Source: Escherichia coli (GTDB lineage Bacteria > Pseudomonadota > Gammaproteobacteria > Enterobacterales > Enterobacteriaceae). From it: 64,000 nucleotides of DNA. Made by a program: the position numbers and the translations under genes. Shown in pieces: positions 79-900 of this stretch. How positions within the stretch are numbered: position 1 is the first letter of the stretch; each line of letters begins with the position of its first letter. The stretch lies in assembly GCF_003334355.1 (NCBI RefSeq), contig NZ_QOWP01000016.1. One strand, written 5' to 3'. Under the pieces are notes generated by a model. The model was not told the DNA's origin, ran no database searches, and was given only the letters and a program-made list of their open reading frames with translations.

Positions 79-900
79 GAGTTCCCCGCGCCAGCGGGGA
101 TAAACCGCTCTTCAGCAATGAAATCGTCAAACGAGATTAGAGTTCCCCGCGCCAGCGGGGATAAACCGCACAATTATTCGGTACGACGGGTTCAGGCATT
201 GAGTTCCCCGCGCCAGCGGGGATAAACCGGACCAGAGATGTCGTAGCCGTATTTCGCAGCCGAGTTCCCCGCGCCAGCGGGGATAAACCGAGGAGTTTAA
301 TTTCCAGATTGAGCGCTGGATAGAGTTCCCCGCGCCAGCGGGGATAAACCGGGCACAAAAAAACCCGCGCACGGCGGGTTAATGAGTTCCCCGCGCCAGC
401 GGGGATAAACCGGTGAGTCCGTCAGCGGTGCGCCGCTGCAACACGAGTTCCCCGCGCCAGCGGGGATAAACCGCTCGATCAGGAAAATGAATTCCTGGAA
501 AAAAAGAGTTCCCCGCGCCAGCGGGGATAAACCGCGTGGTCGGGATTGTTGCGCCAGTCTCCGGGGGAGTTCCCCGCGCCAGCGGGGATAAACCGCACGG
601 CTGGCCATTTGAAATACCTGTTGCTCTGTGTTCCCCGCGCCAGCGGGGATAAACCGAACAGCGAGCCAACTGGTTTCAGATTGCTGAAGTGTTCCCCGCG
701 CCAGCGGGGATAAACCGTTCTTGCGGGTGTTGCAAATATTCTTCACGTAGAGCTCCCCGCGCCAGCGGGGATAAACCGGAGCCTGACGAGACTACTGAGG
801 CCGTTCTGTCGAGTTCCCCGCGCCAGCGGGGATAAACCGGACGCCGCCGCCGCGAAGCCGTTTCCGATGTTGAGTTCCCCGCGCCAGCGGGGATAAACCA
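79..900 (+). CRISPR. Type I-E CRISPR array, distal (CRISPR2.3-like): 14 repeats of 29 bp, 13 spacers of 32 bp
   Basis: GAGTTCCCCGCGCCAGCGGGGATAAACCG recurs at an exact 61-bp period (79, 140, 201 ... 872). Variant repeats GTGTT.. at 628 and 689, GAGCT.. at 750; terminal repeat ends ..CCA. Spacers are all different. Confidence 0.97.

What the first reader, a model, noticed from the sequence alone, without database searches (positions are those of the whole stretch)
352..383. Spacer 5 of the distal array is built around an intrinsic-terminator-like hairpin
Spacer GGCACAAAAAAACCCGCGCACGGCGGGTTAAT reads on the opposite strand as AACCCGCCGTGCGCGGGTTTTTTTGTGCC, a GC stem followed by T7. It was probably captured from a terminator in a phage or plasmid. 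Its self-structure could also affect crRNA use.
Basis: seen in the sequence. Interest (0 to 1): 0.4.

Follow-up and report, generated by a model that had tools for sequence, protein, structure and literature searches.

The report
CRISPR spacer copied from phage terminator
One 32-base memory unit in an E. coli CRISPR array is a near-copy of the transcription stop signal between two tail genes of T1-like phages, which explains its hairpin; it is an ordinary inherited spacer and probably inactive in this genome.

Summary
Window 352-383 is a 32-nt spacer between perfect E. coli type I-E repeats. Its minus strand reads as a 7-bp GC-rich hairpin followed by T7.

The origin idea is largely supported. 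The best cultured-phage matches are 60 T1-like (Drexlerviridae) genomes: 26/27 by BLAST, 29/32 ungapped. The matched site is annotated as a rho-independent terminator, one base after the tail-assembly gene stop codon and upstream of the tail-fibre gene. That hairpin is conserved with compensatory changes across the family. Other family alleles carry the spacer's exact 5' end.

There are three caveats:
- No exact protospacer exists in any collection searched.
- The PAM position in the relatives is ACA or ACG, not AAG/ATG.
- Very similar terminators occur convergently in unrelated, higher-GC phages (one at 30/32) and in Betaproteobacteria, so the source phage is probable, not proven.

No plasmid or E. 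coli chromosomal source was found. The spacer sits identically in 19 of 5,426 complete E. coli genomes, so it is old and inherited.

The crRNA-structure idea is untested. It is probably moot here, because cas3 carries a private nonsense codon and an IS421/IS186 element replaces the leader next to this array segment.

This is an ordinary finding of low interest.

The parts
1..78 (-). Terminal segment of an IS4-family IS421/IS186 insertion sequence. It abuts the first repeat and takes the place of the CRISPR leader.
   Evidence: 100% match to multicopy IS421-family elements in 2,188 E. coli genomes. The transposase CDS reads leftward, away from the array. Identity to an unrelated IS copy stops at position 78. 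The canonical leader seen in L003 and L016 is absent.
79..900 (+). Type I-E CRISPR array of the queE(ygcF)-ygcE locus: 14 repeats and 13 spacers of 32 nt. The last repeat is degenerate (...ACCA).
   Evidence: locus identity from the annotated relative NZ_CP062853
323..351 (+). Repeat upstream of spacer 5. Its last 8 nt would form the crRNA 5' handle. It ends in G.
352..383 (+). Spacer 5, GGCACAAAAAAACCCGCGCACGGCGGGTTAAT
   Evidence: identical in 19 complete E. coli genomes, always within the array (18 annotated as CRISPR)
362..380 (-). Hairpin of the captured terminator. Arms are 362-368 and 374-380, loop 369-373. On the minus strand it is followed by the T-run (complement of A357-A363).
384..412 (+). 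Repeat downstream of spacer 5 (Cas6e hairpin, crRNA 3' handle)
17694..20360 (+). cas3 with a premature stop: TAA at 17823-17825 (Gln44 to stop)
   Evidence: the change is absent from all 1,066 complete genomes that carry this allele
20775..26344 (+). cse1, cse2, cas7, cas5, cas6e, cas1 and cas2 of a K-12-type I-E system, all full length
   Evidence: NCBIfam matches above the curated cut-offs
26449..26600 (+). Short cas-adjacent CRISPR array: two full repeats plus a degenerate one, preceded by its leader

Best explanation
Spacer 5 is a fossil of an encounter between an ancestral E. coli and a T1-like siphophage (family Drexlerviridae).

Inferred: Cas1-Cas2 cut a roughly 33-bp fragment spanning one of the phage's intergenic rho-independent terminators. 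The most likely one sits one base after the stop codon of the tail-assembly gene and upstream of the tail-fibre gene. The fragment was inserted into the queE-ygcE CRISPR array, so the spacer necessarily carries the terminator's stem, loop and A/T run.

Shown: the spacer is oriented so that the terminator reads on the minus strand. On the crRNA strand the hairpin is preceded by A7 and followed by UUAAU, so it is not predicted to stop pre-crRNA synthesis. The spacer was then inherited vertically and is identical in 19 complete genomes.

If expressed, Cas6e would release a 61-nt crRNA. Spacer positions 11-29 of that crRNA can fold into a 7-bp hairpin (-12.7 kcal/mol) that must melt to lie along the Cas7 backbone. 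The seed (positions 1-8) and the repeat hairpin are predicted to stay free.

Against sequenced T1-type phages it would probably not give direct interference. T1 has mismatches at seed positions 4 and 5 and a non-consensus PAM, ACA.

In this genome the spacer is probably inert. cas3 has a nonsense codon at residue 44, and an IS421/IS186 element lies where the leader should be.
For: Anatomy.

Phage match: 60 Tunavirus/T1-like genomes at 26/27 (E = 5e-4), 29/32 ungapped. The site is annotated 'rho-independent transcriptional termination site' in T1 (NC_005833) and 'rho-independent terminator' in SA32RD. It lies between the tail-assembly and tail-fibre genes.

Mismatch pattern: the three mismatches fall in the loop (position 21) and beyond the T-run (positions 4 and 5). 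The stem has none.

Family survey of 71 loci: alleles at the same site carry the spacer's exact 5' end GGCAC (L103 and L114) or its exact 3' end TTAAT (the T1 group). Combining a GGCAC allele (L103) with the T1 allele leaves only the loop base different.

Second locus: a second Drexlerviridae terminator, upstream of terS in L021, matches 29/32 with positions 1-20 identical.

Conservation: the hairpin is conserved with compensatory changes. Pair 16-32 is AU 10, CG 4, GC 4, GU 2. 87% of cells are paired, against 26-66% when the partners are slid. 0 of 500 shuffles reach the observed covariation score.

Host plausibility: Drexlerviridae loci have 45-49% GC and E. coli or Shigella hosts. The other close matches come from contigs of 57-59% GC.

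Other sources excluded: no plasmid source and no E. coli chromosomal or prophage source in 5,426 genomes.

Inheritance.

Inactivity here.
Against: No exact protospacer was found in cultured phages, plasmids, IMG/VR, JGI metagenomes or 100,044 representative genomes.

No near match has the AAG motif expected for the K-12-type adaptation machinery (CTT motif, PMC3737337). Drexlerviridae alleles have ACA, ACG or AAA.

The motif is not unique to T1-like phages. The 18-mer GGCACAAAAAAACCCGCG occurs in 67 IMG/VR contigs. One non-T1 contig (L068) matches 30/32. The 24-nt core, including the loop C, occurs in two Betaproteobacteria. A 29/32 match to a terminator is therefore weaker evidence than the same match to coding DNA.

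Terminator activity of the phage site is predicted by the annotators and supported here by covariation. It has not been measured.
Confidence: 0.68

Rival explanations
1. The spacer came from a terminator of some other, unsampled phage or mobile element. The resemblance to T1-like terminators would then be convergence on a common A-run, CCCGCGC stem and T-run design.
For: L068, a 57% GC contig, matches 30/32 downstream of an antirepressor-like gene whose best relative is in a Pseudomonas phage. L030, L031 and L061 match 29/32. 67 contigs share the 5' 18-mer. Two Betaproteobacteria share the 24-nt core. None of the T1-like alleles has an AAG PAM.
Against: The closer non-T1 matches are in 57-59% GC elements that are unlikely to infect E. 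coli, and their PAMs are not AAG either. Among 50,697 cultured phages, all hits stronger than E = 0.3 are Drexlerviridae at one homologous locus. Both non-structural flanks of the spacer (GGCAC and TTAAT) are found in alleles of that locus.
Confidence: 0.22
2. The spacer was taken from the host's own DNA or from a plasmid terminator.
For: Self-derived spacers do occur in this very array. Spacer 3 matches the chromosomal pflB gene 32/32.
Against: In 28 Gb of complete E. coli genomes, including their plasmids and prophages, the only matches at E up to 10 are the spacer itself in the array. 72,556 plasmids gave only two weak, unrelated hits.
Confidence: 0.04
3. The hairpin is a chance palindrome in an otherwise ordinary spacer, with no terminator ancestry.
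For: Fold z-scores are only -2 to -3. Two neighbouring spacers fold nearly as well. The crude scan finds as many terminator-like sites in shuffled sequence: 2 found against 2.4 expected.
Against: All close database matches fall on intergenic hairpin-plus-T-run sites at gene ends, two of which are annotated as terminators.
Confidence: 0.03

Closest known systems
Rho-independent terminator between the tail-assembly gene (ST34) and tail-fibre gene (ST33) of coliphage T1 (NC_005833, 24972-24994) and its homologues across Drexlerviridae
   Same: It has the same stem (AACCCGC/GCGGGTT), the same A/T run and the same 3' flank TTAAT. Identity is 29/32. The terminator reads on the strand opposite the spacer.
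   Different: The loop base differs (C in place of A), as do the two bases beyond the T-run (GGCAC against GGCGA). T1 has ACA at the PAM position. In the array the element is flanked by CRISPR repeats, not by phage genes.
E. coli K-12-type I-E CRISPR array at the ygcE-ygcF(queE) locus (CRISPR II / CRISPR2.3 in the usual nomenclature, named from my own knowledge)
   Same: Identical 29-nt repeat, 32-nt spacers, the same flanking genes and trailer, and a K-12-type cas operon about 17 kb away.
   Different: Here the leader-proximal side is occupied by an IS421/IS186 element, and cas3 carries a nonsense codon.
Guide RNAs whose internal secondary structure impairs effector loading. This is reported in vitro for an inactive truncated E. 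coli crRNA (PMC4288178). It is better documented for Cas9 and Cas12a guides, which I cite from my own knowledge.
   Same: A stable hairpin (-12.7 kcal/mol) is predicted inside the guide portion.
   Different: There are no data for this spacer. The hairpin spares the seed and the Cas6e hairpin. Cascade assembles on the crRNA with six Cas7 subunits, which may melt such a stem.

Membership tests
Type I-E (E. coli) CRISPR spacer | 32-nt unique sequence flanked on both sides by the 29-nt repeat GAGTTCCCCGCGCCAGCGGGGATAAACCG, with a 61-nt period | tested here: met
Type I-E (E. coli) CRISPR spacer | Type I-E cas operon present in the same genome region | tested here: met
   All eight cas genes are recognised by NCBIfam, but cas3 has a stop at codon 44.
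Type I-E (E. coli) CRISPR spacer | Array preceded by its AT-rich leader, which carries the promoter and integration site | tested here: not met
   Window 1-78 is an IS421/IS186 end. The leader seen in L003 and L016 is absent. Any leader must lie beyond the IS, outside the window.
Spacer with an identified protospacer | Exact or near-exact match in a mobile element | tested here: inconclusive
   The best matches are 30/32 (L068, not an E. coli-like phage) and 29/32 (T1-like phages). There is no 32/32 match in any collection.
Spacer with an identified protospacer | Consensus PAM (AAG, or ATG) immediately 5' of the protospacer | tested here: not met
   ACA in T1, L021 and L103; ACG in L114; TCG in L068. 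The expected motif is taken from PMC3737337 and PMC6568314.
Intrinsic (rho-independent) terminator, minus strand of the spacer and the phage homologue | GC-rich stem of at least 5 bp, loop of 3-8 nt, followed at once by a T-rich run | tested here: met
   7-bp stem with 5 GC pairs, 5-nt loop, T7
Intrinsic (rho-independent) terminator, minus strand of the spacer and the phage homologue | Located just downstream of a gene end, in the direction of transcription, in the source genome | tested here: met
   The T1 site starts one base after the ST34 stop codon and is co-directional with the tail genes. The same holds in phSE-2, L021 (upstream of terS) and L068.
Intrinsic (rho-independent) terminator, minus strand of the spacer and the phage homologue | Hairpin maintained by selection (compensatory changes among homologues) | tested here: met
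Intrinsic (rho-independent) terminator, minus strand of the spacer and the phage homologue | Measured termination of transcription | not testable with these tools
   Only the annotators' predictions exist: the T1 record, and WebGeSTer/TransTermHP for SA32RD.

The most novel reading that the evidence does not exclude
The captured terminator might still act in cis inside the array. Reading on the minus strand, it would stop antisense transcription entering from the convergent ygcE side and so protect pre-crRNA production. Alternatively, terminator-derived spacers might be retained because a structurally constrained target leaves the phage few escape mutations. Nothing here tests either idea. The array content varies freely between strains and ygcE has its own downstream hairpin, which argues against any dependence on this spacer.
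Probability: 0.04. Interest if true: 0.45.

Novelty: already known. Interest (0 to 1): 0.15.

Why it matters
It matters little. It is a tidy example of a natural E. coli spacer that can be traced, with caveats, to a lytic T1-like phage. It also warns that spacer-to-terminator matches are less specific than matches to coding DNA, because terminators converge in sequence. The surrounding context is more informative about the state of this CRISPR-Cas locus than the hairpin is. That context is a perfect self-match of spacer 3 to pflB, a private cas3 nonsense codon and an IS in place of the leader.

Tried and rejected
- Plasmid origin: only two weak, unrelated hits.
- Self or prophage origin: only array copies in 5,426 genomes.
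- Exact-match scans: IMG/VR holds no copy with the loop C. The single JGI metagenome hit is the same E. coli array. The 100,044-genome scan returned only two high-GC Betaproteobacteria, at 4 and 6 mismatches.
- P22-group hits near mnt (25/29, E = 0.3) were treated as chance or convergence.
- L068 (30/32) was considered as the donor and set aside. Reasons: 57% GC, nearest protein relative in a Pseudomonas phage, PAM TCG.
- L067 has an AAG PAM but 5 mismatches.
- Other spacers of the array were checked for Drexlerviridae matches that might indicate primed acquisition from the same phage. None were found; they hit other phages or the host.
- RNAalifold on the MAFFT alignment of terminator alleles gave a meaningless structure, because alleles with different loop lengths were out of register. 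It was replaced by explicit pair counting.
- Rfam gave no match in window 1-1600.
- A literature search for the spacer sequence and for E. coli spacers against Drexlerviridae found nothing.
- The class of ACA and ACG in the 64-PAM survey could not be read, because it is given only in figures.

Full report
**1. What is in the sequence**

Window 79-900 is a CRISPR array. It has 14 copies of the 29-nt E. coli type I-E repeat GAGTTCCCCGCGCCAGCGGGGATAAACCG and 13 spacers of exactly 32 nt, with a 61-nt period. The last repeat is degenerate.

Spacer positions 11-17 (window 362-368, AACCCGC) pair with positions 23-29 (374-380, GCGGGTT) around a 5-nt loop. A7 precedes the stem. The minus strand therefore reads hairpin followed by T7.

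The consensus scan calls this a terminator-like site on the minus strand only. Predicted stability is as follows:
- Sense strand: -12.7 kcal/mol (z = -3.1).
- Antisense strand: -10.9 kcal/mol (z = -2.2).
- It is the most stable of the 13 spacers, but spacers 6 and 8 are not far behind.

On structure alone it would be only moderately unusual.

**2. Which array and which system**

An annotated relative, NZ_CP062853, has the same trailer at 99% identity. It places the array between queE (ygcF) and ygcE.

A complete K-12-type I-E operon (cas3, cse1, cse2, cas7, cas5, cas6e, cas1, cas2) lies at 17.7-26.3 kb. It is followed by its own leader and a very short second array. The repeat orientation puts the crRNA on the plus strand.

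In relatives the array is preceded by the canonical leader, which ends ...AATAATAGGTTATGTTTAGA. In the window the first repeat is instead preceded by the end of an IS4-family IS421/IS186 element. That element's transposase gene reads away from the array. 'Spacer 5' is therefore counted from the IS, not from the leader.

**3. Where the spacer came from**

*Searches that found no source*
- 72,556 plasmids gave nothing meaningful.
- 5,426 complete E. coli genomes gave only the spacer itself, 32/32, in 19 genomes and always within the array (18 of the 19 annotated as CRISPR). Host and prophage origin are therefore out.

*The T1 match.* Among 50,697 cultured phages, the top hits are 60 T1-like genomes (Tunavirus and relatives) at 26/27, E = 5e-4. 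Read without gaps, T1 gives GGCGAAAAAAAACCCGCGCAAGGCGGGTTAAT, which is 29/32.
- The site is annotated 'rho-independent transcriptional termination site' in T1.
- It is annotated 'rho-independent terminator' (WebGeSTer/TransTermHP) in SA32RD.
- It begins one base after the stop codon of the tail-assembly gene and lies 77 nt-intergenic, upstream of the tail-fibre gene.
- The tail genes run on the strand opposite the spacer, so the terminator reads in the gene direction.
- The three mismatches are in the loop (position 21) and beyond the T-run (positions 4 and 5). None is in the stem.

*Family-wide survey.* I surveyed the homologous site in 71 IMG/VR loci that encode a relative of the T1 tail-assembly protein.
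- Nearly all keep the arrangement stop codon, GC hairpin, T6-9, then 5-6 nt later a (T/C)GTATAAT -10-like box.
- Alleles vary at exactly the positions where the spacer differs from T1.
- L103 and L114 have the spacer's 5' end GGCAC. The T1 group has its 3' end TTAAT. Tls-like phages have the loop GCAACG, one base longer than the spacer's GCACG.
- Explicit pair counting shows the stem is maintained by compensatory change. One pair occurs as AU, CG, GC and GU. 87% of cells are paired, against 26-66% for slid controls. 0 of 500 shuffles reach the observed covariation score.
- A second terminator of the same type, upstream of terS in another Drexlerviridae contig (L021), matches the spacer 29/32 with positions 1-20 identical.

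**4. Why the donor is probable but not proven**

- *No exact protospacer.* None exists in IMG/VR, JGI metagenomes (the single hit is the same E. coli array) or 100,044 representative genomes.
- *Convergent design.* The 18-mer GGCACAAAAAAACCCGCG occurs in 67 IMG/VR contigs. One contig (L068) matches 30/32 downstream of an antirepressor-like gene. Two Betaproteobacteria carry the 24-nt core, including the loop C. These closer or equal non-T1 matches have 57-66% GC, and L068's nearest protein relative is in a Pseudomonas phage. They are implausible donors for E. coli, but they show how far convergence can go.
- *No consensus PAM.* No near match has AAG. Drexlerviridae alleles have ACA, ACG or AAA at positions -3 to -1. 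The K-12-type machinery selects CTT, which is AAG on the other strand (PMC3737337). AAG and ATG are the consensus PAMs derived from natural protospacers, and 36 of the 64 trinucleotides give no interference (PMC6568314). I could not read which class ACA and ACG fall in.
- *What the repeat end suggests.* E. coli integrates 33-bp units (PMC9699676), and to my knowledge the last repeat base comes from the PAM. The intact G at window 351 suggests the true donor had G at position -1, as the ACG alleles do. This is inference.

**5. How it would work, and whether it does here**

*Shown.* On the crRNA strand the hairpin is followed by UUAAUGAG, not by a U-run, and no plus-strand terminator is called. 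The 61-nt crRNA is predicted to keep both the spacer hairpin and the Cas6e repeat hairpin, with the seed largely unpaired.

*Inferred.* The 7-bp stem would have to melt for the guide to lie along Cas7. One in vitro study suggested that stable structure can prevent crRNA binding to Cascade (PMC4288178). Nothing is known for this spacer.

*Expected activity against known phages.* Against T1 itself, the mismatches at seed positions 4 and 5 together with the ACA PAM predict no direct interference. The seed definition is from my own knowledge of Semenova et al. 2011. L021- and L103-type targets keep the seed but also have ACA.

*State of the locus in this genome.*
- cas3 carries C to T at 17823 (CAA to TAA, Gln44 to stop) relative to K-12.
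- None of the 1,066 complete genomes with this cas3 allele shares the change.
- The array segment is cut off from its leader by the IS.
- The spacer is therefore most likely an inert, vertically inherited fossil.

*Variation between arrays.* The spacer's neighbours differ by deletion and duplication of spacers. The spacer-4/spacer-5 pair is duplicated in NZ_CP062853, and spacer 6 is missing in a metagenomic copy.

**6. Comparison and verdict**

This is a member of a thoroughly known kind, a type I-E spacer of phage origin. The identical sequence is already present in public genomes and annotated as CRISPR in most of them.

Its origin hypothesis is largely right for phage and unsupported for plasmid. 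Its PAM expectation fails. Its crRNA-structure idea remains untested.

Interest is low. The context noted in passing says more about this locus than the hairpin does: a self-matching spacer 3, a dead cas3 and an IS in place of the leader.

Noticed in passing
window 230-261 (spacer 3): Spacer 3 is a perfect 32/32 match to the chromosomal gene pflB (formate C-acetyltransferase) in 5,410 of 5,426 complete E. coli genomes. In pflB it is preceded by CCG, which is the same as the repeat end and belongs to a non-interfering PAM class (PMC6568314). This is a self-derived spacer lying upstream of spacer 5, in a genome whose cas3 is broken.
   Followed up: partly
window 17823-17825: cas3 has a premature TAA (Gln44 to stop; C to T relative to K-12). 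None of the 1,066 complete E. coli genomes carrying this cas3 allele has it. It could be a real inactivating mutation or a sequencing error.
   Followed up: yes
window 1-78: The end of an IS421/IS186 (IS4-family) element abuts the first CRISPR repeat where the leader should be. Its transposase gene reads away from the array. The rest of the IS, and anything beyond it, lies outside the window.
   Followed up: partly
L003 (NZ_CP062853) 5940-6276: In this relative the spacer-4/spacer-5 pair occurs twice in the same array (as S1-S2 and S5-S6), which is an internal duplication. A metagenomic copy of the array (L016) lacks spacer 6 and carries other leader-proximal spacers.
   Followed up: no
L001 1487-1527 and the homologous sites in L085-L143: Across Drexlerviridae the terminator after the tail-assembly gene is followed 5-6 nt later by a conserved TGTATAAT or CGTATAAT box, which looks like an extended -10 element, in front of the tail-fibre gene. 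This is a compact terminator-promoter unit. The same arrangement occurs upstream of terS in L021.
   Followed up: partly
window 510-527, minus strand: The repeat palindrome followed by the A7 end of spacer 7 also scores as a minus-strand terminator-like site (hairpin, then ACTCTTTTTT). The number of such sites in the region equals the shuffle expectation.
   Followed up: no
window 1355-1490: Three degenerate CRISPR repeat remnants lie between the array trailer and ygcE. They are conserved in NZ_CP062853.
   Followed up: no
window 26449-26600: The cas-adjacent array has only two full repeats, a variant with ...GCGTCAGC..., plus one degenerate repeat. That makes two spacers.
   Followed up: no
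L017-L083, L157, L158: The 18-mer GGCACAAAAAAACCCGCG, including the non-structural GGCAC, recurs in 67 viral contigs of very different GC content. The 24-nt core recurs in two Betaproteobacteria. This is a striking recurrence of one terminator sequence design across unrelated genomes.
   Followed up: partly
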